A stretch of DNA of 64,000 bases from assembly GCA_963752645.1 (NCBI GenBank), contig CAVVZN010000014.1, positions 502,955 to 566,954 on the forward strand. The letters run 5' to 3'. The notes under the pieces were generated by a model. That model saw nothing but the letters and a program-made list of their open reading frames with translations, was not told where the DNA came from and searched no databases. The position numbers were made by a program, and so were the translations under genes. Positions 3,830 to 46,698 of the stretch are shown piece by piece (position 1 is the stretch's first letter; each line of letters starts with the position of its first letter). The stretch comes from an uncultured Actinomycetota bacterium (GTDB taxonomy: Bacteria > Actinomycetota > Actinomycetes > Frankiales > Frankiaceae).

Positions 3830-6508
3830 TTACAGCATCCTCCGGGGTCCGTAGTCGAGCCGTGCCACCGGAGCCCCGACGGTGACGGCGGCACCCAGCG
3901 CCTTCAGGCCCGACGCCGTCACGAGCACCGGGTTGAGCTCGACGGTCGCGACCTCCGGGAGGTCGTCCTTCAACCGGGCGACCCGCAGCAGGAGGTCCTG
4001 CAGTGCCCCGAGGTCGACGGGTTCGGCACCGCGGTAGCCGGACAGCAACGGTGCAGCCCGTGGGGCCCGCACCATCTCCTCGACGTCGACGTCGAGGAGC
4101 GGCACCATCCGCCAGACGGTGTCGCCCAACAGTTCGCTCGCGATCCCACCGACCGCGAAGGAGACCATCGGACCGAAGCTCGGGTCCTCGACAGCCCCGA
4201 TGACGACGGGGACGCCCAGCGGTGCCATCGCCTGGACCACGAGGGATCCGCTCGGGTCGCCCCCGTGGCTCGTGGAGTCGGCCAACGTCTCGGTGACGGC
4301 CTGCCACGCGCTGCGGAGCTGGTCGGGGTTGGAGAGGTCGAGCCGGACCGCGCCGAGGTCTGAACGGTGCCGGTAGGCGGGGTCGGTCGTCTTCAGCACG
4401 ACCGGCCAACCGATCTGTTCGGCAGCGGTCACCGCCGCATCCGCACTCGGAGCCGGGTAGGCCGGCACGACGTCGATCCCGTACGCCTCGAGCAGACCGG
4501 CGATGTCGAGCTGGTTCTGCGGCGTGCCGGCGATCGCCCGCGGCGGGGTGATGAGGCCGCCTCCGGCTCCGCCGCTCAACCCGCCGGCCCCGGCGGTCGC
4601 ACCGTCACCGGGCGCGTCGATGGCCGCCTGGACGATGGCCCGCGCGGCGCCCGGGTCCAGCTCGTCGAAGTGGAACTCGATCCCGGGTCGGCGGCTGCGC
4701 CAGCGTGCGTGCTCGCGAACCCGCCCCATCGCTGCCACGGCCGCTTCCGGCGTCGCGTAGGAGGGCACGCTCGCCAGTTCGGGGACGATGCCCTGCTGGC
4801 CCAGGAAGGTCGCCGCGACCGGACGGGCGGACGTGACGGCCAGCTCCGCGACGGCCGCCCCCACCTCGGCCGCACCGATGCCCAGGGGCGGGACGAAGAC
4901 CGCGATGAGCGCGTCGGCCTCCGTCATGGCCCCGTCGAGCGCGGGCCGGTACTGCTCGCCGCCGCTGTCCACCGGGACCACGTGCACCGAGCCGGCCGTG
5001 AGCCCGGCGGCGGGCAGGGTCCGCTCGACGAGGCGGGCCAGTGAGCTGCTGTTGGACACCACCCCGACGACGTCACCCTCGGGAAGCGGCTGCGCGTCCA
5101 GCAGGGCGGCGACGTCGAGCATGTCCGCGACCGTCCCCGCGCGGACGACCCCGGCCTGCGCCAGCAACGCCTCCGCCACCGGCGACACCCCGGTCGTCAC
5201 CGCCACCATCGGCTTCATCCGTCCCAGCCGGCGCGCCAGCCGGCCGAACTTGCGCGGGTTGCCGAACGTCTCCAGGTAGAGCAGGACGACGGCGGTGTCG
5301 GGGTCGTCCTCCCAGTACTGCAGCAGGTCGTTGCCGCTGACGTCGGCGCGTGCCCCGGCGGACACGAACGACGAGATGCCGAGCCCGCGCCGCCCGACCT
5401 CGTCGAGCAGGGCGATGCCGAGGGCGTCGGACTGGGCGAAGAACCCCAGGCGGCCGGGCGCGGCGATGCGCGGCACCAGTGACGCGTTGAGGTGTCCGGC
5501 GGGGCGCAGCACGCCCAGGCCAGCGGGGCCGATCAACCGCATGCCTGCGGCCCGGACGCGCGCGGCGAGATCCCGGTCGGCTTCGGCGCTGCGCATGTCG
5601 GTCAGGACCACCAGGCCGTGCACGCCGGCCGCTGCGCAGTCCTCGACGACGGCAGGCAGCGTCGAGGGCGGGGTGCAGACGACGGCGAGGTCGACGGGGC
5701 GGGGTGCGTCGACGACCCGGCGGTAGGCCGGCAGTCCGGCGATCTCGGTCGCGCTCCGGTGGATCGGCACGACCTGGCCCTCGAAGCCGGCGGCGAGGAG
5801 GTTCGCGAGCACGACGCCGCCGGGCTTCGCGGGGTCGCGCGACGCCCCCACCACGGCGACGCCGGCGGGCCGCAGCAGCCGTCCGATGGACCGGGCTTCG
5901 GCCCGGTGCTCGCGGGAGCGCATCACCTCGCGGCTCTTGTCGGTCGGCGCGATGTCGAACGCGACCTGTACGGTCCCGCTCTCGTACTGGCGGTTGACCG
6001 TGTAGCCGGCGTCGAGGAAGACGCCGAGCATCGCGCGGTTGCCGCTGAGCACGTCGGCCTCGAACCGGCGCAGCCCGCGTTCCTGGCCGGCCGCGGCGAG
6101 GTGTTCGAGCAGCACCGAGCCGATGCCGCGGCCCTGGTGGTCGTCCTGGACGACGAATGCGACCTCGGCGGCGTCGCTGCCGGGACGGCCCTCGTAGCGA
6201 CCGACGGCGACGAGTTTTTCGTCCACGAGCAGTACGAACGCGACCCGCTTGTCGTGGTCGACGTTGGTGAAGTGCGTCAGCTCCTTCGGCTGGATCACCG
6301 GGTACGGCGCGAAGAAGCGCATGTAGATCGTCTGTTCCGACAGGCGGCTGTGCATCTCCTGCAGCGCCTCGGCGTCGTCGGGACGGATCGGCCGCAGATG
6401 GCCTGTACCACCGTCGGAGAGCAGGACGTCGGCTTCCCAGTGCCGCGGGTAGGGCGCCGCGCCGGACTCGTCGGCAGCCGGCCCAGGGGCGCTCACCGGT
6501 CGAGCCAC
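3830..6508 (-). CDS. Pat-type protein lysine acetyltransferase: N-terminal GNAT fused to an NDP-forming acyl-CoA synthetase-like (CoA-binding plus ATP-grasp) domain
   Basis: N-terminus LRPIRPDDAEALQEMHSRLSEQTIYMRFF...QGRGIGSVLLEHL is a GNAT fold. The remainder has CoA-binding and succinyl-CoA-synthetase-like motifs (VAVVGASRDPAKPGG, a GxGxxG region). Total 892 aa. It overlaps the acuC stop by 16 nt. Confidence 0.8.
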   Translation of the reverse strand: MARPVSAPGPAADESGAAPYPRHWEADVLLSDGGTGHLRPIRPDDAEALQEMHSRLSEQTIYMRFFAPYPVIQPKELTHFTNVDHDKRVAFVLLVDEKLVAVGRYEGRPGSDAAEVAFVVQDDHQGRGIGSVLLEHLAAAGQERGLRRFEADVLSGNRAMLGVFLDAGYTVNRQYESGTVQVAFDIAPTDKSREVMRSREHRAEARSIGRLLRPAGVAVVGASRDPAKPGGVVLANLLAAGFEGQVVPIHRSATEIAGLPAYRRVVDAPRPVDLAVVCTPPSTLPAVVEDCAAAGVHGLVVLTDMRSAEADRDLAARVRAAGMRLIGPAGLGVLRPAGHLNASLVPRIAAPGRLGFFAQSDALGIALLDEVGRRGLGISSFVSAGARADVSGNDLLQYWEDDPDTAVVLLYLETFGNPRKFGRLARRLGRMKPMVAVTTGVSPVAEALLAQAGVVRAGTVADMLDVAALLDAQPLPEGDVVGVVSNSSSLARLVERTLPAAGLTAGSVHVVPVDSGGEQYRPALDGAMTEADALIAVFVPPLGIGAAEVGAAVAELAVTSARPVAATFLGQQGIVPELASVPSYATPEAAVAAMGRVREHARWRSRRPGIEFHFDELDPGAARAIVQAAIDAPGDGATAGAGGLSGGAGGGLITPPRAIAGTPQNQLDIAGLLEAYGIDVVPAYPAPSADAAVTAAEQIGWPVVLKTTDPAYRHRSDLGAVRLDLSNPDQLRSAWQAVTETLADSTSHGGDPSGSLVVQAMAPLGVPVVIGAVEDPSFGPMVSFAVGGIASELLGDTVWRMVPLLDVDVEEMVRAPRAAPLLSGYRGAEPVDLGALQDLLLRVARLKDDLPEVATVELNPVLVTASGLKALGAAVTVGAPVARLDYGPRRML

Positions 6509-7767
6509 GGGTCGAGGCCGTGCAACGGCAGGACCTCGCGTCGGGTCTCGGCGACGGCTCGGTCGACCGGGTCGTCGGGGTCGCCGTCACCGGCGTCCCA
6601 CGGGACATACGACGGGATGCCGCGGCCCTTGTCGGCCGAGGGTTGCCCGGTGCTGCGGCCCTCCGGCGCGGGGCTCTCCGCGGAGGGGTCGTCGGCGGCG
6701 GTGCCCGCGACGGTGCCCGAGGTGTCGGTCATGGCGTCGGGGCCGAGGATGCCCAGGCGCGCCCGGACCTGCTGCCGCCATGCCATCGGCGCGGCGGTGT
6801 CGGGTGCGACGGGGTCGCCGGTGATCGCCGCGACGAGGTGCGTCCACGCCCGCGGGACGACGTCGGCGAGCGCGTACCCGCCACCTCCGAAGGCGACCCA
6901 GCGGCCGTCGCACAGTTCGTGAGCGAGGTCGTGCAGCAGCAGGTAGGACGCCCGCTGGCCGTCGACGGAGAGCCGCAGGTCGGTGAGCGGGTCGGCGCGG
7001 TGGGAGTCGCAGCCGCACTGCGTCACCAGGATCTCGGGCTCGAAGGCCCGCAGCATCACCGGCACCACGCCGCTGAAGGCGCGGAGCCAGCCGGCGTCGC
7101 CCGTGAAGCCGGGGAGCGCGACGTTGACCGCCGTGCCCTCCGCGTCTCCGAGGCCGAGCTCGGTCGCGAAGCCGGTACCGGGGAACAGCGAGCGTCCGCT
7201 CTGGTGCAGCGAGATCGTCAGCACGCGCGGGTCGTCGTAGAACGCGTTCTGCACCCCGTCGCCGTGATGGGCGTCGACGTCGACGTAGGCGACCCGTTGC
7301 ACGCCGTCGTCGAGCAGCGACCGGATGGCGATCGCCGGGTCGTTGTAGACGCAGAAGCCGCTCGCGCGGGTGCGCTGTGCGTGGTGCAGGCCGCCGGAGA
7401 TGTTCACCGCGTGCGTGGCGCGGCCGGAGCGGACGGCGTCGGCCGCCGCGACGCTGGCCCCTGCGATCAGAGCGGACGCGTCGTGCATGCCGTTCCACAC
7501 CGGATCGTCCATCGTCCCGAGCCCGTACCGCTCGTCGGGGAGGGCTCGTCGGACGGCCTTCACGTAGTCGGCGTCGTGCACGCGGTGGAGCAACTGCGGC
7601 GAGACCGGCTCGGCCCCGGTCACCGTCACCCCTGCCCGGTCGAGCAAGCCGAGCGCGCGGGCCAGCTGGATGGTCAGGTCCAGCCGCACGGGCCGCATCG
7701 GATGACCTTCGCCCGGGTCGTAGGACAGGAAGTCGTCGTCCCAGACGACCGTGGCGGGCCCGCTCAT
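6493..7767 (-). CDS. acuC: acetoin utilization protein AcuC / histone-deacetylase-family protein deacetylase
   Basis: 424 aa with HDAC motifs: GFCVYNDPAIAIRSLLDDGVQRVAYVDVDAHHGDGVQNAFYDD and the zinc-binding D..H..D pattern. Confidence 0.8.
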   Translation of the reverse strand: MSGPATVVWDDDFLSYDPGEGHPMRPVRLDLTIQLARALGLLDRAGVTVTGAEPVSPQLLHRVHDADYVKAVRRALPDERYGLGTMDDPVWNGMHDASALIAGASVAAADAVRSGRATHAVNISGGLHHAQRTRASGFCVYNDPAIAIRSLLDDGVQRVAYVDVDAHHGDGVQNAFYDDPRVLTISLHQSGRSLFPGTGFATELGLGDAEGTAVNVALPGFTGDAGWLRAFSGVVPVMLRAFEPEILVTQCGCDSHRADPLTDLRLSVDGQRASYLLLHDLAHELCDGRWVAFGGGGYALADVVPRAWTHLVAAITGDPVAPDTAAPMAWRQQVRARLGILGPDAMTDTSGTVAGTAADDPSAESPAPEGRSTGQPSADKGRGIPSYVPWDAGDGDPDDPVDRAVAETRREVLPLHGLDPWLDR

Positions 7768-9105: not shown

Positions 9106-10263
9106 ATGACCTTCGAGCAGACCAGGGTGCGGTTGCGCGACGTCGCTCGCCATCACGTCGAGGAGACCGACGTCCCCGGGCTCGTCGCCGTCGTCGCGTG
9201 CGGCGAGGACCTCCACGTCGAGGCACTCGGCACCCTGACCGTCGGCGAGGACCGTCCGGTGCGCCGCGATTCACAGTTCCGGATCTCCTCGGTGACCAAG
9301 CCGATCACGGCCGCGGCCGTGCTGGCGCTCGTCGACGAGGGCCTGCTGACGCTGGACCAGCCGGTCGATGACCTGCTGCCCGAACTCGCCCACCCGAGGG
9401 TCCTGCGCCGCCCGGACGGGCCGCTCGACGAGACGGTCCCGGCCGTGCGGCCGATCACCGTTCGCGACCTGCTGACCTACACCTACGGCTTCGGCATGGT
9501 CTTCGACATGTTCACGACGCCGCAGCCGTGGCCGGTGGTCGAGGCTTCCCACCGCCTGGGGCTCGGCACGATCGGGCCGCCCGATCCGGACCACACCGTG
9601 GCGCCCGAGGCGTGGCTCGCAGGCCTTGGCTCGCTCCCCCTGCTGGCACAGCCGGGCGACCAGTGGTTCTACCAGACCTCCGGAGCAGTCCTCGGGATGC
9701 TCGCGGCTCGGGCGACCGGGCTCCCGTTCCCCGATGTCCTGCGCACCCGCCTGTTCGATCCGCTGGGCATGCGCAGCACGGCGTTCTGGGCCGAGGATCC
9801 CTCGCGCCTCTCCACCGCCTACGGGTCCGGGCCGGACGGGCTGGTGGTGACCGACGAGCCCGACGGGTCGTGGAGCCACCCGCCGGCGTTCCCGGACGGC
9901 GGTGCGGGGCTGGTCTCGACCGCGGACGACCTGCTCGCGTTCTCGCGCATGCTGCTGCGCGGAGGAGCGCCCGTGCTGCGCCCGGAGACGGTGGCCGCGA
10001 TGACCACACCACAGCTGACCCCGGACCAGCAGGCGAGCCCCGCGGTGGGGCAGTTCATCGGGGACGGCAGCTGGGGGCTCGGGCTCGCGGTGCACCCGGA
10101 CGGGTCCTACGGGTGGACGGGCGGTTTCGGGCAGAACTGGCACGTCGACCCTGCGCGGGGTCTCGTCGTCATCACGCTGACGCAGCGCGCCTTCGACGGC
10201 CCGGACGCCCTGCCCGCCGTGCACGCTGACATCCTCGCGCTCGCACGATCCGGACTGAGCTGA
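9106..10263 (+). CDS. serine hydrolase, beta-lactamase/penicillin-binding-protein (class C-like) family
   Basis: SVTKPITAAAV (S-x-x-K), a YxN-like region and HTGGFGQNW near the C-terminus. 385 aa. Confidence 0.8.
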   Translation: MTFEQTRVRLRDVARHHVEETDVPGLVAVVACGEDLHVEALGTLTVGEDRPVRRDSQFRISSVTKPITAAAVLALVDEGLLTLDQPVDDLLPELAHPRVLRRPDGPLDETVPAVRPITVRDLLTYTYGFGMVFDMFTTPQPWPVVEASHRLGLGTIGPPDPDHTVAPEAWLAGLGSLPLLAQPGDQWFYQTSGAVLGMLAARATGLPFPDVLRTRLFDPLGMRSTAFWAEDPSRLSTAYGSGPDGLVVTDEPDGSWSHPPAFPDGGAGLVSTADDLLAFSRMLLRGGAPVLRPETVAAMTTPQLTPDQQASPAVGQFIGDGSWGLGLAVHPDGSYGWTGGFGQNWHVDPARGLVVITLTQRAFDGPDALPAVHADILALARSGLS

Positions 10264-13354: not shown

Positions 13355-13549
13355 TCACCCGCCGGACGGGTGCAGCGGTGGCGTGATGAAGGTGCGCTTC
13401 TGGCACGAGCGGCAGACCGCGACCTGCGCGCCCGGCTCCTCCTCGGTGACGCCGAAGCGGCTCAGCAGGATCGTGGCTTCGCACCACGAGCAGTCCACCC
13501 AGGGTCCATCGGGCAACGGTCCGTCGGCGAGGGCGTCGAAACCGCTCAC
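13355..13549 (-). CDS. small zinc-ribbon protein (64 aa, CxxC...CxxC), hypothetical
   Basis: GTG at 13549 overlaps the upstream TGA (GTGA). Sequence VSGFDALADGPLPDGPWVDCSWCEATILLSRFGVTEEEPGAQVAVCRSCQKRTFITPPLHPSGG. Strong GC3 bias. The track shows it only as the tail of a longer Arg-rich ORF. Confidence 0.45.
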   Translation of the reverse strand: MSGFDALADGPLPDGPWVDCSWCEATILLSRFGVTEEEPGAQVAVCRSCQKRTFITPPLHPSGG

Positions 13550-14127
13550 GCCGAGGGCGCAGCGGACGGGTCGCGACCGAGGAAGCCGACCAGCCGATCG
13601 ACCGCAGGAGCGTCGTCGGCGACCGGGACCTCGTCGCCGAAGGACTTGTCCGGGCCACGGTAGGCGGGGGTCAGGAACTGGCGTCCCGCAGCGAGGGCCG
13701 CCTCGGCCTCCCCTTCGACGTAGGGCACCGGCTGCCCGGTCGCCACCGCGAGGTCCCAGCCGTGGCCGACGTACTCCATGAGCATCATGCCGAGCACCAT
13801 CGAGCCCGGGATCGGGGCGCCCATCAGCGTGATCGGCCGGTCCGCGGCCCCGCCGCGGAAGGCAGCGACGGCATGCCGCCCGGCCAGCGCGAACTGCTCG
13901 GCCTCGATCGCGGGCCAACCCTCGCTGCTGTTCGCCGGAGGAGGCGGCGGGTCGCCGTCGAGGCTGGTGGCGAAGGTCGTCAGCCACTGCACGAGGTGGT
14001 TCGTCAGGCCCTCGACGTCGAGCTCGGGGCAGGGGGTCGGTCGGTGAGCGGCCTCAGGCGGCACGTCGGCGAGCAGGGTCGACGTCTTCACCAGCACGGA
14101 GTCGAGGAGATCGACGTTCTCGCTCAC
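13546..14127 (-). CDS. TIGR03086-type metal-binding protein (mycothiol-dependent maleylpyruvate isomerase N-terminal domain / DinB superfamily)
   Basis: 193 aa: MSENVDLLDSVLVKTSTLLADVPPEAAHRPTPCPELDVEGLTNHLV... Confidence 0.65.
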   Translation of the reverse strand: MSENVDLLDSVLVKTSTLLADVPPEAAHRPTPCPELDVEGLTNHLVQWLTTFATSLDGDPPPPPANSSEGWPAIEAEQFALAGRHAVAAFRGGAADRPITLMGAPIPGSMVLGMMLMEYVGHGWDLAVATGQPVPYVEGEAEAALAAGRQFLTPAYRGPDKSFGDEVPVADDAPAVDRLVGFLGRDPSAAPSA

Positions 14128-14214
14128 GGCGACAACCTAACAGCGGTGCGAGGATCGGCACCATGCTCGGACCGGTGTTGCGCGGCCGCACGAAACCGGC
14201 AGAGTAGACCGGCG

Positions 14215-14679
14215 ATGAGCGACACCAGCGACACCCCCCGCATCCCCGTCACCTACGACCACTGCGACCACATCCCGGGTCCGTTCTTCCACGGAACGAA
14301 GTCGGTGCTCGCCGTGGGCGACGAGCTGATCGCCGGCTACGGCTCCAACTTCCAGTCGGGCCGGGTCTCGAACAACATCTACTTCACCGCTCTCGTGCCG
14401 ACGGCCGCCTGGGGAGCGCAGCTCGCCGCCGCGCTCGCGGGCAGCAGCGAGCGCGGCCACATCTACGTCGTCGAGCCGCTCGGTCCGTTCGAGGACGACC
14501 CCAACGTGACCGACAAGAAGTTCCCGGGCAACGTGACGGAGTCCTACCGCACGCGCCACCCGCTCCGGGTCGTCCGCGAGCTCGAGACCTGGGAGCCCCA
14601 CCCGCCGGAGGCCGTGGCCGGGATGCTCGCCGGCCTCGCGCGGTTGCGGGAGCAGGGCCTCGACGTGATCATCGACTGA
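14215..14679 (+). CDS. arr: NAD(+)--rifampin ADP-ribosyltransferase Arr
   Basis: GPFFHGTKSVLAVGDELIAGYGSNFQSGRVSNNIYFTALVPTAAWGAQLAAALAG...GHIYVVEPLGPFEDDPNVTDKKFPGNVTESYRTRHPLRVV closely matches Arr-ms-type enzymes. 154 aa. Confidence 0.85.
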   Translation: MSDTSDTPRIPVTYDHCDHIPGPFFHGTKSVLAVGDELIAGYGSNFQSGRVSNNIYFTALVPTAAWGAQLAAALAGSSERGHIYVVEPLGPFEDDPNVTDKKFPGNVTESYRTRHPLRVVRELETWEPHPPEAVAGMLAGLARLREQGLDVIID

Positions 14680-14688
14680 CGCCTGCGG

Positions 14689-16329
14689 CTAGCGCTGCTC
14701 GACGACCTGTCCTGCGTGGACGTGCAGGTGACGGGTGGTGTGCACGGCCTCCAGCATCCGCCGGTCGTGGGTCACGAGCAGCAGCGTGCCGGGGTAGGAG
14801 TCCAGCGCCGACTCGAGCTGCTCGATCGCCGGGAGGTCCAGGTGGTTGGTCGGCTCGTCGAGCACGAGCAGGTTGACGCCCTTGGCCTGCAGCAGCGCGA
14901 GCGCCGCCCGGGTCCGCTCCCCCGGCGACAACGACGAAGCGGGACGCACGACGTGGTCGGCGCGGAGACCGAACTTGGCGAGCAGCGTGCGGATGTCGGC
15001 GGGCGCGAGGTCGGGGACGTCGTCGCGGAACGTCTCCGCGAACGGCCGCTCGCCGAGGAAGCGGCGCCGGGCCTGGTCGACCTCACCGACGACGACACCC
15101 GGGCCCAGCGACGCGGACCCCTCGTCCAGCGGCAGGCGACCGAGCAGGGCCGCGAGCAGCGTCGACTTGCCGCTGCCGTTCGCGCCGGTGACGGCGACGC
15201 GGTCGGCCCAGTCGATCTGCAGGTCGACCGGCCCGAGCCGGAACGCCCCGCGCTGCACGACGGCCCCACGCAGGGTGGCGACGACGGCGCCGGCGCGCGG
15301 AGCGGCCGCGATCGTCATCTGCAGCTCCCACTCCTTGCGGGGCTCGTCGACGACGTCGAGACGCTCGATCATGCGGTCGGTCTGCGCCGCCTTCGCGGCC
15401 TGCTTCTCGCTGGCCTCGCCGCGGAACTTGGCACCGATCTTGTCGTTGTCCGGTGCCTTGCGCCGCGCGTTGCGGACGCCCTTGGCCATCCACGCGCGCT
15501 GCGTCCGACCGCGCTCCTCCAGCGAGCTCCGGGTGTCGGCGTACTGCTCGTAGGCCTCGCGGGCATGACGCCGGGCGACCTCACGCTCGTCGAGGTAGGA
15601 GGCGTAACTCCCGCCGAAGACGCGGACCTGCTGCTGAGCGAGGTCGATCTCGACAACGCTGTTCACCGTCCGGGTCAGGAACTCCCGGTCGTGGCTCACG
15701 AGGACGACGCCGGCGCGCAGGCCGGTGACGAACTCCTCGAGCCGCCGCAGCCCGTCGAGGTCGAGGTCGTTGGTCGGCTCGTCGAGCAGGAACACGTCGT
15801 AGCGCGAGAGCAGCAGCGAGGCGAGCCCTGCCCGCGCCGCCTGCCCGCCGGACAGGCTCGTCATCGCCGCCTGCAGGTCGATCGTGAGGCCGAGGTCGGC
15901 CGCCACCTGCTCCGCCCGCTCCTCGAGGTCTGCGCCACCGAGGTCGAGCCACCGCTCGAGCGCCGTCGAGTACCGGTCGTCCGCGCCGGCACCACCCTCG
16001 GCGAGCGCCTCGGCGGCGGCGTCCATCTCGGTCTGCGCCGCCCCGACCCCGGTGCGGCGCAGCAGGAAGGCGTGGACGGTCTCGCCGGGCCGTCGCTCCG
16101 GCTCCTGCGGCAGGTAGCCGACGCTGGCGGTCGACGGGCTCAGCGAGATGGCGCCCTGCTCGGGACGATCGAGGCCGGCGAGCATGCGGAGCAGCGTCGA
16201 CTTGCCGGCGCCGTTGGCGCCGACGAGGCCGATGACGTCGCCCGGCGCGACCACGAGGTCGAGGCCGGCGAACAGGCTGCGGGCTCCGTGGCCGGCGGAG
16301 AGGTCCTTCGCGACCAGCGTTGCACTCAC
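14689..16329 (-). CDS. ABC-F family ATPase (tandem ABC domains, no transmembrane domain)
   Basis: Two Walker A/signature sets: GANGAGKST / LSGGQAARAGLASLL...LLDEPTNDLD and GANGSGKST / LSPGERTRAALALLQ...LVLDEPTNHLD. Start set at GTG 16329 (VSATLVAKDL) because the longer ORF to 16482 would overlap prpE by ~100 nt. Confidence 0.75.
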   Translation of the reverse strand: MSATLVAKDLSAGHGARSLFAGLDLVVAPGDVIGLVGANGAGKSTLLRMLAGLDRPEQGAISLSPSTASVGYLPQEPERRPGETVHAFLLRRTGVGAAQTEMDAAAEALAEGGAGADDRYSTALERWLDLGGADLEERAEQVAADLGLTIDLQAAMTSLSGGQAARAGLASLLLSRYDVFLLDEPTNDLDLDGLRRLEEFVTGLRAGVVLVSHDREFLTRTVNSVVEIDLAQQQVRVFGGSYASYLDEREVARRHAREAYEQYADTRSSLEERGRTQRAWMAKGVRNARRKAPDNDKIGAKFRGEASEKQAAKAAQTDRMIERLDVVDEPRKEWELQMTIAAAPRAGAVVATLRGAVVQRGAFRLGPVDLQIDWADRVAVTGANGSGKSTLLAALLGRLPLDEGSASLGPGVVVGEVDQARRRFLGERPFAETFRDDVPDLAPADIRTLLAKFGLRADHVVRPASSLSPGERTRAALALLQAKGVNLLVLDEPTNHLDLPAIEQLESALDSYPGTLLLVTHDRRMLEAVHTTRHLHVHAGQVVEQR

Positions 16330-16384
16330 CCGCTGGACGCTAGTGGATGTCCGGAGCTCGCTCGACCGGGTTCCCCGCTGCCTC

Positions 16385-18283
16385 CTACTGCGGCGGGGCC
16401 GCGCCGATGCCGCCCAGCGCCTCGCGCATCTCGTCGAGCGCAGTTGGGTCCTCGATGGTCGCGGGGGGCTCGAAATCGACACCGTCCACGATGGAGCGCA
16501 TCGGGGCGCGCAGGATCTTGCCGGAACGGGTCTTGGGCAGGCGCTTGACGATGCGCACGTCCTTCGGCGTCGCGATCGCCCCGATCTCGTCGCGGATGCG
16601 CTGCCGCAGCTCGGCGCGCAGCTCGTCGTGGTCGCGGTCGACGCCCCCTGCCAGCACCACCACTGCCAGCGGCATCTGTCCCTTCATCGAGTCGGCGATG
16701 CCGAAGGCCGCGGCCTCGGCGACGTCCGGGTGGTTGGCGAGCACCTCCTCGATCGCGCCGGTGGAGAGACGGTGCCCGGCGACGTTCATGACGTCGTCGG
16801 TGCGGCCCATCACGAACACGTAGCCGTCGGGGTCGATCATCCCGCCGTCGTGGGTCGTGTAGTAGCCCGGGAACGCGCTCATGTAGCTGTCGACGAAGCG
16901 CTCGTCGTCGTGCCACAGCCGCGGGAAGGTGCCGGGTGGCAGCGGCAGTCTGGTCGCCAGGGTGCCGATCGTGCCGTTCGGCACGGGCTGCCCGGTGTCG
17001 TCGAGGACCTGCAGGTCGTAGCCGGGCATCGGGAACGTGGCCGAGCCCGGCTTCGGCGTGACCGGTTCCAGCCCGCGGGGGTTGCCGGCGATGGCCCAGC
17101 CGGTCTCGGTCTGCCACCAGTGGTCGATGACGGGTTTGCCGAGGGTGTCGGTCGCCCACTGGTAGGTGTCCGGGTCCAACCGCTCACCGGCCTGGAACAA
17201 CGTCGCGAACGACGACAGGTCGTGCTGGGCCAGCAGCTCGCCCTTCGGGTCCTGCCCGCGGACGGCGCGGAGCGCGGTGGGGGCGCAGAACAGCGCCTTC
17301 ACGCCGTGCTGGGCGCAGACCCGCCAGAACGCCCCCGCATCCGGGGTGCCGACGGGCTTGCCCTCGTAGAGCACCGTCGTACAGCCCAGAAGCAACGGCC
17401 CGTAGACGATGTAGGAGTGGCCGACGACCCAGCCGATGTCGGACGCGGTGAAGAACGTGTCCTCGGGCGTGAGGTCGTAGTGGTTGGTCATCGTCCAGCG
17501 CAGGGCGACGGCGTGGCCGCCGTTGTCGCGCACGATGCCCTTCGGCCGGCCGGTGGTGCCGGAGGTGTAGAGGATGTAGAGCGGATCCGTCGCCGCGACC
17601 GGTACGCAGTCGGCCGGCTGCGCCGAGGCGACGAGCGACGCCCAGTCGTGGTCCCGGCCGTCGGTGAGGGACGCCTCGGCCTGCGGCCGCTGCAGGATCA
17701 CGCAGGCGTCGACGGTGTGCGACGAGAGCTCGAGCGCCTTGTCCAGCAGCGGCTTGTACTCGAGGACGCGCGTCGCCTCCACGCCGCAGGAGGCCGAGAG
17801 CACGACCTTCGGCTGGGCGTCGTCGATCCGCTTCGCGAGCTGACTCGACGCGAAGCCGCCGAAGACGACCGAGTGGACGGCGCCGAGCCGGGCGCAGGCC
17901 AGCATGCCCATGACGGCCTGCGGGACCATCGGCATGTAGATGACGACGCGGTCGCCCTTCCCGACGCCGAGCGAGACCAGGGCCCCGGCCAGCCGTGACA
18001 CCTCGTCGAGCAGGTCGGCGTAGGTGAAGGTCTGGACGGTCTCGGTGACCGGGCTGTCGTAGACCAGGGCCGCGCGATCGCCGTGGCCCGCGTCGACGTG
18101 CCGGTCGAGGCAGTTGTGGCAGGTGTTGAGCTCGCCCCCGACGAACCAGCGGGTGAACGGCTCCTCGGAATTGTCGAGCACCTGGTCGGCCGGCCGATAC
18201 CAGTCGATCAGCTCGGCCTGCTCCGCCCAGAACCCCTCCGGGTCTTCGAGGCTGCGTCGGTAGGTCGTCTCGTAGGCACCCAT
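16385..18283 (-). CDS. prpE: propionyl-CoA synthetase / acetyl-CoA-synthetase-like AMP-forming acyl-CoA ligase
   Basis: 632 aa. N-terminus ...FWAEQAELIDWYRPADQVLDNSEEPFTRWFVGGELNTCHNCLDRH. AMP-binding motif YTSGTTGRPKG. Confidence 0.7.
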   Translation of the reverse strand: MGAYETTYRRSLEDPEGFWAEQAELIDWYRPADQVLDNSEEPFTRWFVGGELNTCHNCLDRHVDAGHGDRAALVYDSPVTETVQTFTYADLLDEVSRLAGALVSLGVGKGDRVVIYMPMVPQAVMGMLACARLGAVHSVVFGGFASSQLAKRIDDAQPKVVLSASCGVEATRVLEYKPLLDKALELSSHTVDACVILQRPQAEASLTDGRDHDWASLVASAQPADCVPVAATDPLYILYTSGTTGRPKGIVRDNGGHAVALRWTMTNHYDLTPEDTFFTASDIGWVVGHSYIVYGPLLLGCTTVLYEGKPVGTPDAGAFWRVCAQHGVKALFCAPTALRAVRGQDPKGELLAQHDLSSFATLFQAGERLDPDTYQWATDTLGKPVIDHWWQTETGWAIAGNPRGLEPVTPKPGSATFPMPGYDLQVLDDTGQPVPNGTIGTLATRLPLPPGTFPRLWHDDERFVDSYMSAFPGYYTTHDGGMIDPDGYVFVMGRTDDVMNVAGHRLSTGAIEEVLANHPDVAEAAAFGIADSMKGQMPLAVVVLAGGVDRDHDELRAELRQRIRDEIGAIATPKDVRIVKRLPKTRSGKILRAPMRSIVDGVDFEPPATIEDPTALDEMREALGGIGAAPPQ

Positions 18284-20025: not shown

Positions 20026-20715
20026 TCAGCCGTCGGCGGCGCGCCGCATCCTCGCCACGAGGATGCCGGGGACCTCGGTGATGCTGTCGGCGACGTGCGC
20101 CGCGGACGCGAGCGCGTCATCGGCGGGCGGGTACTCGCGGTTGGGGACGGCGATGACGGTCAGGCCGGCTGCGGCGGCGGAGCGGATCCCGTTCGACGAG
20201 TCCTCGACGGCCGCTGCCGACGCGGGCTCGACCCCGAGCCGTCGGCAGGCCTCGAGGTAGACGTCGGGTGCGGGCTTGCCGCGCGGAACCGCCTCACTGG
20301 AGACCTCGGCGGCGAACAGCTCCCGGATCCGCGCTGCGTCGAGCACGGCCGCGATGAGCCGCGGGGGGCTGCTGCTGGCCACGGCGATCGGCCAGCGGCC
20401 GGCAACGGCCCGGACGACGTCGACGGCGCCGTCGATCAGCGGCGGCTCGTCACCCAGGGCCTCCGCCACCCGGTCGATGACCTCGTCGGCCACCTGCTCC
20501 GCCGGTCCCGGTACGCCGAGCGAGTCGACGAGGTAGGCCGACCACTCCGGGGTGCTCATCCCCATCTGGTCGGTGCTCGCCGTCGGGGACCAGGTGCCGC
20601 CCTTCTCCTCGACGTAGGCCTGCCGCACCTCGTCCCAGACCTGCTCGGACTCGACGATCACGCCGTCCATGTCGAAGACGATGGCCAGCAGGTCGGGCTC
20701 CTGGCCCCGGCTCAC
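20026..20715 (-). CDS. HAD family hydrolase (beta-phosphoglucomutase-like)
   Basis: VSRGQEPDLLAIVFDMDGVIVESE carries HAD motif I (DxDGV). GTG start overlaps the TetR stop as GTGA. Confidence 0.7.
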   Translation of the reverse strand: MSRGQEPDLLAIVFDMDGVIVESEQVWDEVRQAYVEEKGGTWSPTASTDQMGMSTPEWSAYLVDSLGVPGPAEQVADEVIDRVAEALGDEPPLIDGAVDVVRAVAGRWPIAVASSSPPRLIAAVLDAARIRELFAAEVSSEAVPRGKPAPDVYLEACRRLGVEPASAAAVEDSSNGIRSAAAAGLTVIAVPNREYPPADDALASAAHVADSITEVPGILVARMRRAADG

Positions 20716-21416
20716 CGCGACTGCTGCGGCAGGGTCGTCGCCACGGCCGGGAGCAGGAGTTCGCGGACGAACGCCAGCAGCTCGGCGCAGGCCTGGTCTC
20801 CGGCACAGATCCTCGGCAGCAGGATCGCCCAGTTCATGTGCTGCAGTTCGAACTGCGCGTCGGGACGGTTCGCCGCCGCCAGCCCGGTGCCGGCCATCTG
20901 CGTGACGAGGTATCCGGCGAGCCGTTCGATGCCTCGAACATCGCCGGACGCGCCTTCCGACAGCTGCAGGAAGGCCAGGTCGCCGAGCTGCCCCGCGTGC
21001 TCCGCCTCGCGCAGGTAGCCCAGGATGACGTCGCGCCACCAGGGCGCGGTGCGCGGCAACTCACGGTCGATGAGGCCACGGTCCAACAGGAGACGGCTGG
21101 CGGCCCGGATCGTCGCGTCGTCGCGGAAGGCGAAGGCGGTAGCGCAGATCAGGGAGACGAGGCGTCGCAGGGGGTCCTGCTCCTGGGCCTCCACCTGCTG
21201 CCGCAGCTGGTCCCACCGCGCGGCCTGCTCCTCGGCGATCGCAACCGCGAGGGCGTCCTTGGACTCGAAGTGGAAGTAGAACGCCCCGCGGGTGAGACCG
21301 GTGCTCTCCACGAGCCGATTGAGGGTCGCGCCCGCGTAGCCCTGCTTGTCGAAGACCTGGGCCGTCGATTCCAGGATGCGTTGGCGCGTCCGTAGGCCAC
21401 GGGCTGTTACTGACAT
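20712..21416 (-). CDS. TetR/AcrR family transcriptional regulator
   Basis: MSVTARGLRTRQRILESTAQVFDKQGYAGATLNRLVESTGLTRGAFYFHFESKDALA (HTH). Confidence 0.8.
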   Translation of the reverse strand: MSVTARGLRTRQRILESTAQVFDKQGYAGATLNRLVESTGLTRGAFYFHFESKDALAVAIAEEQAARWDQLRQQVEAQEQDPLRRLVSLICATAFAFRDDATIRAASRLLLDRGLIDRELPRTAPWWRDVILGYLREAEHAGQLGDLAFLQLSEGASGDVRGIERLAGYLVTQMAGTGLAAANRPDAQFELQHMNWAILLPRICAGDQACAELLAFVRELLLPAVATTLPQQSR

Positions 21417-21552
21417 GACCTTGACAGTAGCCAGGCGAGATGTGAGCGCATGCCGTTCGCGGAGGAACCAGCAACTCCGCATGACGAAGTGCACAGCCTG
21501 AAAGAATCGGGCGGTCTTCGGCGTTGTAGCCGCCGACTACCGAGGGAGTTGC
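21417..21552. promoter_or_regulatory. divergent TetR/MFS intergenic region with a weak inverted repeat (tcggcg-N7-cgccga, 21518..21536); candidate operator
   Basis: Classic TetR-efflux divergent architecture. SD gagggag lies 6 nt upstream of the MFS GTG. Confidence 0.3.
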
Positions 21553-22857
21553 GTGACTGAGCAGTCGCCGGAGGCACCCGGCCGGGTGCCGGAGGCAGTG
21601 CCGGAGGCAGCGCCGAAGACCGGGCTCCGCCGCCTCGTCCTCGATACCACCCCGCTGCAGATCCGGCCCTACCGGCGGTTGTGGTCGTCCACGGTCGTCA
21701 CGGCCATCGGCAGCCAGTTGACCGCCGTCGCGGTGCCGAAGCAGCTCTACGACATCACGGGTTCCTCGGCCTGGGTCGGCCTCTCCGGCGCCGTGGCCCT
21801 GGTGCCGTTGGTCGTCTTCGCCCTGTGGGGCGGCGCGATCGCCGACGTGGTCGACCGGCGCAAGCTGATGATGGCGACCAACTCCGGCCTCGCCGTGACC
21901 TCCGGGCTGCTGTGGCTCCAGGCCGCGACGGGCATGCGCAACGTCTGGGTGGTCCTCGGCCTGCTCGCTCTGCAGCAGGCCTGCTTCGGGATGAACAGCC
22001 CTGCCCGCAGTGCGTCGGTGCCGCGCCTGGTGCCGGCGTCGATGCTGCCCGCGGCCAACGCGCTGAACGCGACGGTGATGATGATCGGCTCGATCAGCGG
22101 GCCGCTGCTCGCCGGCGCGCTGATCCCGGTGCTCGGCCTGTCGACGCTCTACCTGATCGACACCATCGCGCTGGCCGTCGCCGTCGCCACCGTCTTCCGG
22201 CTCCCCGCGCTGCCGCCGCTCGGCGAGAGTGGCCGTCGGGCCGGTCTGTCGTCCATCGCCGACGGCTTCCGCTACATGGCGTTGCAGCCGGTGCTGCTGG
22301 TCTCCTTCCTCGCCGACATCATCGCCATGGTGTTCGGCATGCCGCGGGCGCTGTTCCCGCAGCTGGCGGCACAGACCTTCGGCGGCCCGGCCGGTGCCGG
22401 CCTCGCCCTCGGGGTCCTCTACGCAGCGATCCCGGCCGGCTCCCTCGTCGGCGGCCTGCTCTCGGGCACCTTCACCCGCATGCGACGCCACGGGACCGCC
22501 GTGGTGCTCTCCGTGGCGGCCTGGGGGGCCGCCGTCGCCGGGTTCGGCCTGTCCGGTTCCCTCGTGCTCGCGGCAGTCTTCCTGGCCATCGCCGGCGCCG
22601 CCGACCTGGCGAGCATGGTCTTCCGCAGCTCGATCCTGCAGGAGGCGGCCACCGACGAGATGCGCGGCCGCATGCAGGGCGTGTTCACGGTCGTCGTCGC
22701 CGGCGGACCTCGCTTGGCCGACCTCGTGCACGGCACGTTGGGGGCGGCGATCGGCGTCGGGCCGACCATCGTCGGCGGCGGCGTGCTCGTCGTCGCCGGG
22801 ACAGCCGTTCTGACCCTCGTCTTCCCGTCCTTCTGGCGGTACCGCTCGGCGAGCTGA
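21553..22857 (+). CDS. MFS transporter
   Basis: 434 aa with about 12 TM segments and a DVVDRRK motif. GTG start. Confidence 0.8.
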   Translation: MTEQSPEAPGRVPEAVPEAAPKTGLRRLVLDTTPLQIRPYRRLWSSTVVTAIGSQLTAVAVPKQLYDITGSSAWVGLSGAVALVPLVVFALWGGAIADVVDRRKLMMATNSGLAVTSGLLWLQAATGMRNVWVVLGLLALQQACFGMNSPARSASVPRLVPASMLPAANALNATVMMIGSISGPLLAGALIPVLGLSTLYLIDTIALAVAVATVFRLPALPPLGESGRRAGLSSIADGFRYMALQPVLLVSFLADIIAMVFGMPRALFPQLAAQTFGGPAGAGLALGVLYAAIPAGSLVGGLLSGTFTRMRRHGTAVVLSVAAWGAAVAGFGLSGSLVLAAVFLAIAGAADLASMVFRSSILQEAATDEMRGRMQGVFTVVVAGGPRLADLVHGTLGAAIGVGPTIVGGGVLVVAGTAVLTLVFPSFWRYRSAS

Positions 22858-24903: not shown

Positions 24904-24915
24904 TTGCCTGAGTAC

Positions 24916-25539
24916 GTGCGCATCGAACAGCTCGTGACCTCAGGCCAGTTCCACCTCGACGGCGGCGCCTGGGACGTCGACAACAACGTCTGGATCGTCG
25001 GTGACGCCGACGAGGTGATCGTCATCGACGCCCCGCACGACGCGGACGCCATCGAGGCGGCGGTCGGGGGCCGGAGGGTCGTGGCGATCGCCTGCACCCA
25101 TGCGCACGACGACCATGTCAACGTCGCTCCCGAGCTCGGTCGCCGATTCGGCGCGCCGGTGCTGCTTCACCCCGCCGACGACGTGCTCTGGCGGATGGCG
25201 CACCCCGACGCCCGGCCCGACGGCGAGCTCGTCGACGGACAGCGGCTCGCGGTCGCCGGCACCCGCATCGACGTGCTGGCGACACCGGGCCACGCACCGG
25301 GCGCAGTGTGCTTCCACCTGCCGGAACTCGGCGCGGTGTTCAGCGGCGACACGCTGTTCAGCGGTGGGCCCGGGGCGACCGGCCGCAGCTACAGCGACTT
25401 CCCGACCATCCTGACCTCGATCGAGCAGCGGCTGTTCGCGCTGCCGGGCGACACGATCGTCCACACCGGGCACGGCGACGACACCAGCATCGGCGCGGAG
25501 TCGCCGCACCTCGACGAATGGCGCGCCCGCGGCCACTGA
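24916..25539 (+). CDS. MBL-fold metallo-hydrolase (glyoxalase-II-like)
   Basis: IACTHAHDDHV (HxHxDH) and TPGHAPGAVC. Alternative TTG start at 24904. Confidence 0.7.
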   Translation: MRIEQLVTSGQFHLDGGAWDVDNNVWIVGDADEVIVIDAPHDADAIEAAVGGRRVVAIACTHAHDDHVNVAPELGRRFGAPVLLHPADDVLWRMAHPDARPDGELVDGQRLAVAGTRIDVLATPGHAPGAVCFHLPELGAVFSGDTLFSGGPGATGRSYSDFPTILTSIEQRLFALPGDTIVHTGHGDDTSIGAESPHLDEWRARGH

Positions 25540-43355: not shown

Positions 43356-43979
43356 ATGACAGGTAGCCCTTGGCCCACCATCCACGCGGAGCGTGACGCG
43401 CTCGCGGCCGACCTCGGCGACGTGCCGGACGATCGCTGGTCCACGCCGTCGCTCTGCTCGGGGTGGACCGTCCTCGAGACCCTGGGCCACATGACGGCGA
43501 CCGCCAAGATGACTCCCCCGCGGTTCCTCGGGAAGATGGCGGCGTCGGGCTTCCGGTTCTCGGCCATGGCGGAGAAGGCCCTCGCGCAGGAGAGCGCCGG
43601 CGGCCCCGCCCAGACGCTCGCCGAGTTCCGGCGCGTCGCGCCGGCGGAGACCTCGCCGCCGGGGCCGGTCGACAGCTGGCTCGGCGAGACGATCGTGCAC
43701 GCCGAGGACATCCGTCGTCCCCTCGGGATCACGCACACCTACCCCGCCGAGGCGCTGGTGCGGGTGGCGGATTTCTACAAGGGCTCGAACATGCTCATCG
43801 GGGCCAAGAAGCGCATCGCCGGAGTGACCCTGCGCGCGTCGGACGTCGACTGGTCAACCGGTGACGGGCCGGAGGTCACCGGGCCGATGCTCTCGCTGCT
43901 GCTCGTGATGACCGGCCGCGTCGCGGCGCTGGAGGACCTCTCCGGCCCCGGGGTCGCCATGCTCCGCGACCGGCTCTGA
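43356..43979 (+). CDS. maleylpyruvate isomerase family mycothiol-dependent enzyme (TIGR03083 / DinB_2-like)
   Basis: WSTPSLCSGWTVLETLGHMT is a typical MDMPI N-terminal domain. Confidence 0.65.
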   Translation: MTGSPWPTIHAERDALAADLGDVPDDRWSTPSLCSGWTVLETLGHMTATAKMTPPRFLGKMAASGFRFSAMAEKALAQESAGGPAQTLAEFRRVAPAETSPPGPVDSWLGETIVHAEDIRRPLGITHTYPAEALVRVADFYKGSNMLIGAKKRIAGVTLRASDVDWSTGDGPEVTGPMLSLLLVMTGRVAALEDLSGPGVAMLRDRL

Positions 43980-46645: not shown

Positions 46646-46698
46646 CGGTCCAGCATGGAGGAATCGCTCCGGAGCGCATCAGGTTTGATGGAGTGCCG

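What the first reader, a model, noticed from the sequence alone, without database searches (positions are those of the whole stretch)
14215..16329. Rifampin ADP-ribosyltransferase (arr) convergent with an ABC-F ATPase: candidate intrinsic-resistance corner
The 154-aa product matches Arr closely across its whole length. ABC-F proteins of the ARE class protect ribosomes from antibiotics.

The two genes end 10 bp apart in convergent orientation. The organism therefore probably carries intrinsic rifamycin inactivation and possibly ribosome-protection resistance.
Basis: established knowledge. Interest (0 to 1): 0.55.

Follow-up and report, generated by a model that had tools for sequence, protein, structure and literature searches.

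The report
Rifamycin resistance gene beside ribosomal ATPase
A genuine rifampicin-inactivating gene (arr) lies tail-to-tail with a ribosome-binding ABC-F ATPase of the little-studied actinobacterial AAF1 group, but they are neighbours by accident, so this is two ordinary, already-known kinds of gene and not a resistance locus.

Summary
The window has a 154-aa arr gene (14215-14679, +) and a 546-aa ABC-F gene (14689-16329, -), convergent, with 9 bp between the stop codons.

Arr passes NCBI's equivalog cut-off. It is 54-55% identical to the solved Arr-2 and Arr-ms and keeps the catalytic H-Y-D motif (H26, Y56, D95).

The ABC-F is not EttA, Uup or YbiT. It belongs to the actinobacterial AAF1 subfamily: 77% identity to S. 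coelicolor AAF1 and 100% bootstrap. The only studied AAF1 member, Ard1, protects ribosomes from nucleoside antibiotics. Its interdomain linker is about 30 residues longer than in EttA, as in resistance ABC-Fs. But it scores just under NCBI's ribosomal-protection cut-off, is about 80% identical across actinobacterial genera, and has no room for an antibiotic-sensing leader. Its role is therefore untested.

The "corner" reading fails. None of 80 related arr loci has an ABC-F within 5 kb, and none of 8 other AAF1 contexts has arr. In three syntenic relatives a small unrelated ORF occupies exactly the arr slot. arr also lacks the rifamycin-associated element.

Verdict: new members of known kinds, adjacent by chance. 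Low interest.

The parts
14215..14679 (+). arr: NAD+--rifamycin ADP-ribosyltransferase, 154 aa
   Evidence: NCBIfam NF033144 equivalog scores 169.8 bits against a cut-off of 130. Pfam PF12120 matches at 3e-40. PDB Arr-2 (9iba) matches at 2.9e-52 and Arr-ms (2hw2) at 6e-43. H26, Y56 and D95 form the H-Y-D motif.
14689..16329 (-). ABC-F ATPase of the actinobacterial subfamily AAF1, 546 aa, GTG start
   Evidence: It has two ABC_tran domains and no membrane domain. It is 77% identical to S. coelicolor AAF1 NP_630815.1 and at most 36% to any other labelled subfamily. It sits in the AAF1 clade with 100% bootstrap. Walker A, Walker B-Glu and H-loop are intact in both halves.
14680..14688 (.). 9-bp spacer between the two convergent stop codons
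   Evidence: Read directly from the sequence. No terminator-like hairpin was found in 13400-16600.
14150..14690 (.). Lineage-specific segment: arr plus 65 bp upstream and 9 bp downstream. It is the only break in synteny with three relatives.
   Evidence: blastn collinearity with L081, L082 and L083 stops at about 14691-14719 and resumes at about 14144-14149. In the relatives the slot holds a conserved 65-69 aa ORF with no similarity to Arr.
14128..14214 (.). 87-bp divergent intergenic region upstream of arr. It contains an imperfect 28-bp palindrome (14172-14199) and no rifamycin-associated element.
   Evidence: The palindrome is pair I8. The best RAE match in the 300 bp upstream has 8 of 19 mismatches, which equals background. 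The window has no match at 3 or fewer mismatches. The RNA fold is no more stable than shuffled sequence (z -0.74).
16330..16384 (.). 55-bp gap between the acs-like gene and the ABC-F start; too short for a uORF/attenuator leader
   Evidence: Sequence. The fold z-score is -0.34. There is no Rfam match and no promoter- or terminator-like site. The equivalent gaps in relatives are 11, 16 and 126 bp.
16385..18283 (-). Acetyl/propionyl-CoA synthetase (AMP-forming); co-directional upstream neighbour of the ABC-F, conserved in the close relatives
   Evidence: Pfam ACAS_N, AMP-binding and AMP-binding_C match. NCBIfam acetate--CoA ligase NF001208 scores 661.3 against a cut-off of 657. The same gene order is seen in L081-L083.
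13546..14127 (-). TIGR03086/MDMPI_N (DinB-like) protein; conserved flank on the other side of the arr slot
   Evidence: NCBIfam TIGR03086 scores 124 bits against a cut-off of 83. The gene is syntenic in L081-L083.

Best explanation
Two unrelated genes happen to abut.

(1) arr encodes a working-type Arr enzyme. By homology, it transfers ADP-ribose from NAD+ to the 23-hydroxyl of the rifamycin ansa bridge, so the drug no longer binds the RNA polymerase beta subunit. The organism is therefore probably intrinsically rifamycin-tolerant (inferred). arr lies in a small variable slot of an otherwise conserved chromosomal block. In this lineage it has most likely replaced a small conserved ORF. It lacks the RAE control element, so it is probably not induced by rifamycin in the usual actinobacterial way (inferred).

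(2) The ABC-F is a vertically inherited AAF1-subfamily protein, probably co-transcribed with the upstream acyl-CoA synthetase. Like other ABC-Fs it should bind the ribosomal E site in its ATP form and push its long helical-hairpin linker towards the peptidyl-transferase centre. Whether that displaces an antibiotic, as the AAF1 member Ard1 does for A201A and hygromycin A, or tunes translation, is not known for this conserved orthologue group.

There is no functional or regulatory link between the two genes.
For: Arr identity:
- NF033144 equivalog scores above its cut-off.
- 55% identity to Arr-2/Arr-3 and 54% to Arr-ms.
- H26, Y56 and D95 align with H19, Y49 and D84 of Arr-ms. The H-Y-D motif and the 23-OH chemistry are described in bioRxiv 10.1101/2025.02.20.639278.

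ABC-F = AAF1:
- BLAST against Murina et al. labelled sequences gives 77% and 72% identity to AAF1 and at most 36% to anything else.
- The NJ tree places it in the AAF1 clade with 100% bootstrap.
- Ard1 is classed as AAF1 and confers nucleoside-antibiotic resistance (PMC10201436).

Linker:
- The H-loop1 to Walker-A2 distance is 171 residues, against 142 in EttA, 140 in Uup and 175-180 in ARE5.
- AlphaFold predicts a hairpin of helices 242-290 and 297-326.
- The linker is as conserved as the ATPase domains across 117 orthologues.

No linkage:
- 0 of 80 arr loci have an ABC-F within 5 kb.
- 0 of 8 other AAF1 contexts have arr.
- The synteny break is exactly 14150-14690, and a different small ORF fills it in the relatives.

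No RAE. The RAE core is verified at -74 to -56 of M. smegmatis arr through PMC7882622.
Against: - No activity was measured for either protein.
- arr has host-like composition (GC 0.70, GC3 0.96). The direction of the replacement (arr gained here versus lost in the relatives) therefore rests on parsimony over only three relatives.
- Co-transcription of the ABC-F with acs is inferred from spacing alone.
- I could not obtain the Ard1 sequence, so how close Ard1 is to this orthologue group is unknown.
- Deep nodes of my tree are unsupported (5-17%). 'Related to ARE4/ARE5' therefore rests on the published trees.
Confidence: 0.82

Rival explanations
1. One reading: a functional intrinsic-resistance corner, in which rifamycin inactivation and ribosome protection are kept together by selection or shared control.
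For: Both gene families have resistance members. The genes are only 9 bp apart.
Against: The pairing is absent from 80 of 80 related arr loci and from 8 of 8 other AAF1 loci. Close relatives keep the ABC-F and all flanks but have another gene in the arr slot. The convergent orientation excludes an operon. No shared motif, RAE or RNA element was found. Surrounding genes are ordinary metabolism.
Confidence: 0.04
2. The AAF1 protein is a constitutive intrinsic ribosome-protection factor. It dislodges a class of antibiotics that act at the peptidyl-transferase centre, so the organism really does carry two resistance functions side by side, though independently.
For: - It is in the same subfamily as Ard1.
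- Its best NCBIfam hit is the ribosomal-protection-like ABC-F model, ahead of EttA (361.5 versus 255.5 bits).
- Its linker is about 30 aa longer than in EttA or Uup and similar to ARE5.
- AAF1 is patchy among actinobacteria: present in M. smegmatis, S. coelicolor and Frankia alni, absent from M. leprae, M. kansasii and S. clavuligerus. Murina et al. predicted AAF1-5 to be resistance factors.
- Precedent: the conserved mycobacterial ABC-F OcrA/Rv1473 was recently reported to protect against linezolid (PMC13041422).
Against: - The score is below NCBI's curated cut-off of 380.
- Identity of 78-80% across Streptomyces, Micromonospora, Amycolatopsis, Actinomadura and others, with an equally conserved linker tip, is unlike the variable linkers of drug-specific factors.
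- Upstream gaps of 11-145 bp leave no room for the uORF/attenuator leaders typical of inducible resistance ABC-Fs (general rule in PMC10201436).
- Koberska et al. counted only ARE5 and AAF4 as putative resistance ABC-Fs in S. lincolnensis.
Confidence: 0.33
3. The AAF1 protein is a housekeeping translation factor with no resistance role, so only arr is a resistance gene.
For: - Sequence conservation is very high and inheritance is syntenic and vertical in the close relatives.
- It is probably in an operon with a central-metabolism gene, with no inducible leader.
- The top solved-structure matches by sequence and by fold are EttA.
Against: It is not universal in actinobacteria, unlike EttA, Uup and AAF6. 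It has an extended linker. The subfamily contains Ard1. The fold search does not separate translation factors from resistance factors; TM scores are 0.34-0.42 for both.
Confidence: 0.45
4. arr here serves mainly a non-resistance role, such as stress physiology, or is poorly expressed, so the organism is not notably rifamycin-resistant.
For: There is no RAE and no recognisable promoter or ribosome-binding site upstream. Arr has been linked to stress responses and fitness without rifamycin (bioRxiv 10.1101/2025.02.20.639278).
Against: The catalytic motif is intact and the equivalog-level match spans the full length. Chromosomal actinobacterial arr alleles tested so far conferred resistance (PMC8492726). 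Most of the 80 closest homologues also lack an RAE, so its absence is normal for this clade.
Confidence: 0.15

Closest known systems
Arr-2/Arr-3 (integron cassettes on enterobacterial and Pseudomonas plasmids; PDB 9iba) and Arr-ms of Mycolicibacterium smegmatis (PDB 2hw2, 9iaf)
   Same: The protein has the same fold family and length class, and the match is end to end. Identity is 55% to Arr-2/Arr-3 and 54% to Arr-ms. H-Y-D, HGTK and EDDPN are conserved. The expected chemistry is the same: ADP-ribosylation of the rifamycin 23-OH.
   Different: The gene is chromosomal, sits in a high-GC actinobacterium with host-like codon usage, and is not in an integron or on a plasmid. It has a 9-18 residue N-terminal extension. 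Unlike M. smegmatis and M. abscessus arr, it has no RAE palindrome upstream.
AAF1 subfamily of ABC-F proteins (Murina et al. 2019), e.g. S. coelicolor NP_630815.1; characterised member Ard1 of Streptomyces capreolus
   Same: Identity to S. coelicolor AAF1 is 77%. The length (545-546 aa), long linker and motifs are the same.
   Different: Ard1 sits in the A201A biosynthetic cluster as a self-resistance gene. This gene sits among metabolic genes in a non-producer context. The Ard1 sequence could not be compared here.
ARE4 (OleB, TlrC, CarA, SrmB) and ARE5 (LmrC, VarM, TiaA, Are5sc) ribosomal-protection ABC-Fs of actinomycetes
   Same: They are the next-best matches after AAF1, at 33-36% identity, and ARE5 has a comparable linker length.
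   Different: The protein scores far below the family-specific cut-offs (ABCF_producer 268.5 versus 800). It has no antibiotic-responsive leader and is not in a biosynthetic cluster.
EttA/Uup/YbiT/YheS translation-factor ABC-Fs
   Same: The overall ABC-F architecture is shared. EttA is the best solved-structure match by sequence (205 bits) and by Foldseek.
   Different: Identity is only 25-32%. The NCBIfam scores are far below their cut-offs (EttA 255.5 versus 599; Uup 241.6 versus 900). The linker is about 30 residues longer.

Membership tests
Arr (NAD+--rifampin ADP-ribosyltransferase) | Full-length match to the curated family model, above its cut-off | tested here: met
   NF033144 equivalog scores 169.8 bits against a cut-off of 130, covering model positions 3-130 of 131. 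Pfam PF12120 scores 136.8 bits against 25.
Arr (NAD+--rifampin ADP-ribosyltransferase) | Catalytic H-Y-D motif (Arr-ms H19, Y49, D84) | tested here: met
   H26 (FFHGTKS), Y56 (NNIYFTA) and D95 (FEDDPNV) align with the Arr-ms residues. The motif is named in bioRxiv 10.1101/2025.02.20.639278.
Arr (NAD+--rifampin ADP-ribosyltransferase) | Close similarity to enzymes with solved structure and proven activity | tested here: met
   Arr-2 (9iba) matches at E 2.9e-52 with 55% identity. Arr-ms (2hw2) matches at E 6e-43 with 54% identity.
Arr (NAD+--rifampin ADP-ribosyltransferase) | ADP-ribosylates rifamycins and raises the MIC | not testable with these tools
   This needs an enzyme assay or MIC measurement.
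RAE-controlled rifamycin resistance genes of Actinobacteria | 19-bp palindrome (core GGGGCTTGCGGCAAGCCCC) upstream of the gene | tested here: not met
   The window has no match at 3 or fewer mismatches. The best match in the 300 bp upstream has 8 of 19 mismatches, equal to background. The consensus was recalled from memory. It was then checked against M. smegmatis arr at -74 to -56 (PMC7882622) and against loci L001 and L062.
ABC-F family | Two ABC ATPase domains joined by a helical linker, with no membrane domain | tested here: met
   There are two ABC_tran stretches. Walker A is at 37 and 382, Walker B-Glu at 179 and 487, and the H-loops at 212 and 520. A helical hairpin is predicted at 242-326. 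All top fold matches are ABC-Fs.
AAF1 subfamily (Murina et al. 2019) | Groups with labelled AAF1 sequences to the exclusion of other subfamilies | tested here: met
   Identity is 77%, 72% and 72% to three labelled AAF1 sequences and at most 36% to all others. NJ bootstrap support is 100%.
Antibiotic-resistance (ARE) ABC-F / ribosomal protection | Score above NCBI's curated cut-off for ribosomal-protection-like ABC-F | tested here: not met
   NF000355 scores 361.5 bits against a cut-off of 380. All named ARE models score far below their cut-offs.
Antibiotic-resistance (ARE) ABC-F / ribosomal protection | Extended interdomain linker (ARD) relative to EttA | tested here: met
   The H-loop1 to Walker-A2 distance is 171 residues, against 142 in EttA, 140 in Uup and 175-180 in ARE5.
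Antibiotic-resistance (ARE) ABC-F / ribosomal protection | Antibiotic-inducible leader with uORF or attenuator. This is typical of the family but not universal. | tested here: not met
   The upstream gap is 55 bp here and 11-145 bp in 8 orthologue contexts. There is no Rfam hit, no terminator, and no fold more stable than shuffled sequence.
Antibiotic-resistance (ARE) ABC-F / ribosomal protection | Confers resistance to a ribosome-targeting drug in an ATPase-dependent way | not testable with these tools
   This has been shown only for the AAF1 member Ard1 (PMC10201436).
EttA/Uup/YbiT housekeeping ABC-Fs | Score above the curated family cut-off, or grouping with these clades | tested here: not met
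   EttA scores 255.5 against 599, Uup 241.6 against 900, and PRK15064 215.4 against 762. Identity is 25-32%. The protein lies on the other side of the NJ tree from these clades.
Resistance gene cluster or island | Recurrent co-location of the component genes in other genomes | tested here: not met
   0 of 80 arr loci have an ABC-F within 5 kb. 0 of 8 other AAF1 contexts have arr. The relatives show a synteny break at the arr slot.

The most novel reading that the evidence does not exclude
The highly conserved 'core' AAF1 orthologue group, to which this gene belongs, could be a so-far uncharacterised, constitutively expressed intrinsic ribosome-protection factor of many actinobacteria. Its invariant linker tip (W-M-x-K-G-V-x-N-A-R-R-K-A...N-D-K) would then be tuned to one ancient class of drugs that act at the peptidyl-transferase centre, for example nucleoside antibiotics as for Ard1. 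In that case the small slot beside it, which holds arr here and other ORFs in relatives, would sit next to a real resistance determinant.
Probability: 0.3. Interest if true: 0.35.

Novelty: new member of a known kind. Interest (0 to 1): 0.15.

Why it matters
It matters little beyond annotation. It predicts that this uncultured or poorly named high-GC actinobacterium (relatives are Frankiaceae-like) inactivates rifamycins. It also adds one more arr of the actinobacterial clade that is about 55% identical to the clinically spread Arr-2/Arr-3.

The more useful by-product is a pointer. AAF1 ABC-Fs are about 80% identical across actinobacterial genera, have an ARE-length linker, and remain functionally untested apart from Ard1. 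Any tractable AAF1 carrier, such as S. coelicolor or M. smegmatis, would answer whether they protect ribosomes. The adjacency to arr carries no information about that question.

Tried and rejected
- Looked up the window's own ABC-F in the contig index to name the organism. It was not on record. The cluster look-up gave no names.
- Tried to get the Ard1 sequence from the supplements of Obana et al. It is not there.
- Tried to read Spanogiannopoulos 2014 for the RAE logo. The paper is not held. I used a recalled consensus and verified it indirectly.
- Searched for SCO6742, my inferred locus tag for S. coelicolor AAF1. There were no papers.
- Rfam, promoter/terminator scans and RNA folding of both upstream regions found nothing above background.
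- A repeat search around arr for cassette or transposon signatures found only chance-level repeats.
- An AlphaFold model plus Foldseek against the PDB confirmed the ABC-F fold. It did not separate translation factors from resistance factors, because low TM scores are dominated by the arrangement of the domains.
- Considered that arr might start at the upstream in-frame GTG at 14146. Rejected, because the extra 23 residues are Cys/Arg-rich junk and L009 shares the ATG start.
- Considered that the small ORF in the relatives might be a decayed arr. Rejected, because there is no similarity.
Full report
**Observation.** The window is high-GC DNA, about 0.71-0.72. On the plus strand an ORF from ATG 14215 to TGA 14679 encodes 154 aa. 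On the minus strand an ORF ending at 14689 encodes an ABC-F protein. The mechanical ORF runs back to 16482. The GTG at 16329 gives VSATLVAKDL, which matches the start MTATLVAKNL of S. coelicolor AAF1, and leaves a 55-bp gap to the stop of the upstream gene at 16385. The two stop codons are separated by 9 bp (14680-14688).

**arr.**
- The product matches Pfam Arr-ms over the whole model (3e-40).
- It passes NCBI's equivalog model NF033144 (169.8 bits, cut-off 130).
- Against solved structures it matches Arr-2 (9iba, 2.9e-52) and Arr-ms (2hw2/9iaf, 6e-43) end to end. Identity is 55% and 54%.
- It is 55% identical to the Arr-2/Arr-3 genes found on 1,735 plasmid records.
- The catalytic H-Y-D motif of Arr-ms (H19, Y49, D84) corresponds to H26, Y56 and D95. 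The motif and the 23-hydroxyl chemistry are described in bioRxiv 10.1101/2025.02.20.639278.
- Arr occurs in about 17% of actinobacterial genomes, and the chromosomal alleles tested so far conferred resistance (PMC8492726).

This is an ordinary new member of a well-known family. Activity is inferred, not shown.

**Control of arr.** Actinobacterial rifamycin-resistance genes, including M. smegmatis and M. abscessus arr, carry a 19-bp palindrome called the RAE upstream.
- I recalled its core as GGGGCTTGCGGCAAGCCCC. M. smegmatis arr has TGGGGCTTGCGGCAAGGCC at -74 to -56 (PMC7882622), and such palindromes precede arr in loci L001 and L062, which supports the recalled core.
- The window has no match at 3 or fewer mismatches.
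- The best match in the 300 bp upstream of arr has 8 of 19 mismatches, which equals background.
- Only 2-3 of the 80 closest arr homologues have an RAE-like site.
- An imperfect 28-bp palindrome lies at 14172-14199. The region folds no better than shuffled sequence.

**The ABC-F.**
- It has two ABC domains and no membrane domain. Walker A, Walker B-Glu and H-loops are intact in both halves.
- Its best NCBIfam hit is the ribosomal-protection-like ABC-F model NF000355, but at 361.5 bits it is just under the 380 cut-off. EttA (255.5 against 599) and Uup (241.6 against 900) are far below theirs.
- I took labelled sequences from the supplements of Murina et al. 2019. The protein is 77% identical to S. 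coelicolor AAF1 (NP_630815.1) and 72% to two other AAF1 sequences. It is at most 36% identical to ARE4, ARE5, AAF3, AAF4 and AAF5, and 25-33% to EttA, Uup, AAF6, AAF2, YbiT and YheS.
- A neighbour-joining tree puts it in AAF1 with 100% bootstrap. Deeper nodes are unresolved.
- AAF1 is actinobacteria-specific, with 313 sequences in that survey. Murina et al. predicted it, along with AAF2-5, to be a resistance group.
- Its one studied member, Ard1 of S. capreolus, confers ATPase-dependent resistance to A201A and hygromycin A (PMC10201436).

**For and against a resistance role for this AAF1.**

In favour:
- The distance from the first H-loop to the second Walker A is 171 residues. It is 142 in EttA, 140 in Uup, 149 in AAF2 and 175-180 in ARE5.
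- The AlphaFold model (mean pLDDT 79) shows a helical hairpin at 242-290 and 297-326.
- AAF1 is patchy in actinobacteria, unlike EttA, Uup and AAF6.
- The conserved mycobacterial ABC-F OcrA/Rv1473 has recently been reported as a linezolid protection factor. I infer it is AAF6, from its MITATDL start and the mycobacterial ABC-F inventory. Conservation therefore does not exclude resistance.

Against:
- Orthologues are 78-80% identical across Streptomyces, Micromonospora, Amycolatopsis, Sphaerisporangium and Actinomadura.
- The linker, including its tip, is as conserved as the ATPase domains (mean column conservation 0.88-0.90, 117 sequences).
- The upstream gap is 55 bp here and 11-145 bp in eight other contexts. 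There is no Rfam hit, terminator or unusually stable fold, so the uORF/attenuator leaders typical of inducible resistance ABC-Fs are missing.

The fold search returns translation factors and resistance factors alike. The role is open.

**Is it a 'corner'?** No.
- Among the 80 closest arr loci from species-representative genomes, each with up to 5 kb on either side, none has an ABC-F. None shares the window's flanking genes.
- Eight distinct AAF1 contexts, from three Frankiaceae-like relatives plus Streptomyces, Micromonospora, Amycolatopsis, Sphaerisporangium and Actinomadura, lack arr. Beyond the close relatives they share no neighbours.
- The three relatives (ABC-F 82-86% identical) are collinear with the window from about 19488 to 14691 and again from about 14149 to 11038. 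The order is aldo-keto reductase, acyl-CoA synthetase, ABC-F, [slot], TIGR03086 protein, glycosyltransferase, aldose epimerase.
- The only break is 14150-14690, which is arr with its 65-bp upstream and 9-bp downstream sequence.
- In the relatives the slot (239-245 bp, or 1,237 bp in L081) holds a conserved 65-69 aa ORF of unknown function in the same orientation. L081 also has an extra 267-aa ORF. The small ORF has no Arr similarity and no Pfam match.
- arr has host-like GC and GC3 and no flanking repeats of note.

The simplest reading is a gene replacement in a variable slot. Its direction is inferred by parsimony only.

**Surroundings.** Twenty-four ORFs scanned across the window are ordinary chromosomal genes. 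No HelD/HelR, Rox, Rph or Rgt was seen among them. The scan did not cover every ORF.

**Verdict.** The ABC-F is AAF1: not a housekeeping clade and not a proven resistance gene. The juxtaposition is accidental. Both are new members of known kinds, and interest is low.

Noticed in passing
L082:6638-6835(-), L083:6667-6867(-), L081:7613-7822(-); equivalent to window 14150-14690: Three syntenic relatives carry a conserved 65-69 aa ORF exactly where arr sits in the window. The copies are 57-65% identical to each other, with invariant LQRW..GA.WRV and C.GGEEVDR motifs and no Pfam family. L081 adds a 267-aa ORF with no Pfam match. The slot between the ABC-F and the TIGR03086 gene looks like a small variable cargo site.
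   Followed up: partly
L001-L080, 300 bp upstream of each arr homologue: Only L001, L062 and weakly L040 have an RAE-like palindrome. The other 77 or so arr homologues, mostly uncultured Actinomycetota, Acidimicrobiia and Geodermatophilaceae, do not. Many instead share a loosely conserved leader ending ...GCGGCGGTCCGTGATGAACGAGGAG-N8-ATGGGCGAG. This clade of arr may be controlled differently from the mycobacterial and streptomycete genes.
   Followed up: partly
window 14172-14199: An imperfect 28-bp palindrome, CCGGTGTTGCGCGGCCGCACGAAACCGG, lies 16-43 bp upstream of the arr start, in the divergent intergenic region. It is not RAE-like and is not statistically unusual in this GC-rich sequence.
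   Followed up: partly
window 14689-16329 (protein residues 467-471 and 280-297): The second ABC signature motif is LSPGE rather than LSGGQ/E. The linker tip W-M-x-K-G-V-x-N-A-R-R-K-A...N-D-K is invariant or nearly so across 25-117 AAF1 orthologues from different genera.
   Followed up: partly
window 3830-7767: A GNAT acetyltransferase fused to an ADP-forming acyl-CoA synthetase-like module (892 aa) overlaps the start of a histone-deacetylase-family gene (424 aa). This protein acetylation/deacetylation pair lies about 10 kb from the AMP-forming acyl-CoA synthetase at 16385-18283.
   Followed up: no
window 52891-53988 and 62328-63233: An IS110-family transposase and a phage-type integrase lie in the last 12 kb of the window, where GC falls to 0.67-0.69 from about 0.72. 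This may be a mobile-element region, and it is far from the finding.
   Followed up: no
window 9106-10263, 20712-22857, 24904-25539, 43356-43979, 46693-50616: Other genes seen are a serine beta-lactamase-family protein (PF00144), a divergent TetR + MFS_3 transporter pair (also syntenic in relatives), a metallo-beta-lactamase-fold protein, a second MDMPI_N/DinB-like protein, and an HrpA-type DEAH helicase with DUF3418. None is a recognised rifamycin or ribosome-drug resistance gene.
   Followed up: no
literature (PMC13041422; Murina Table S1): OcrA/Rv1473 and MAB_2736c, now described as linezolid/phenicol ribosome-protection factors, appear from their N-terminus and the mycobacterial ABC-F inventory to belong to AAF6. 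Murina et al. did not predict that subfamily to be resistance-related. This is my inference and was not checked by alignment.
   Followed up: no
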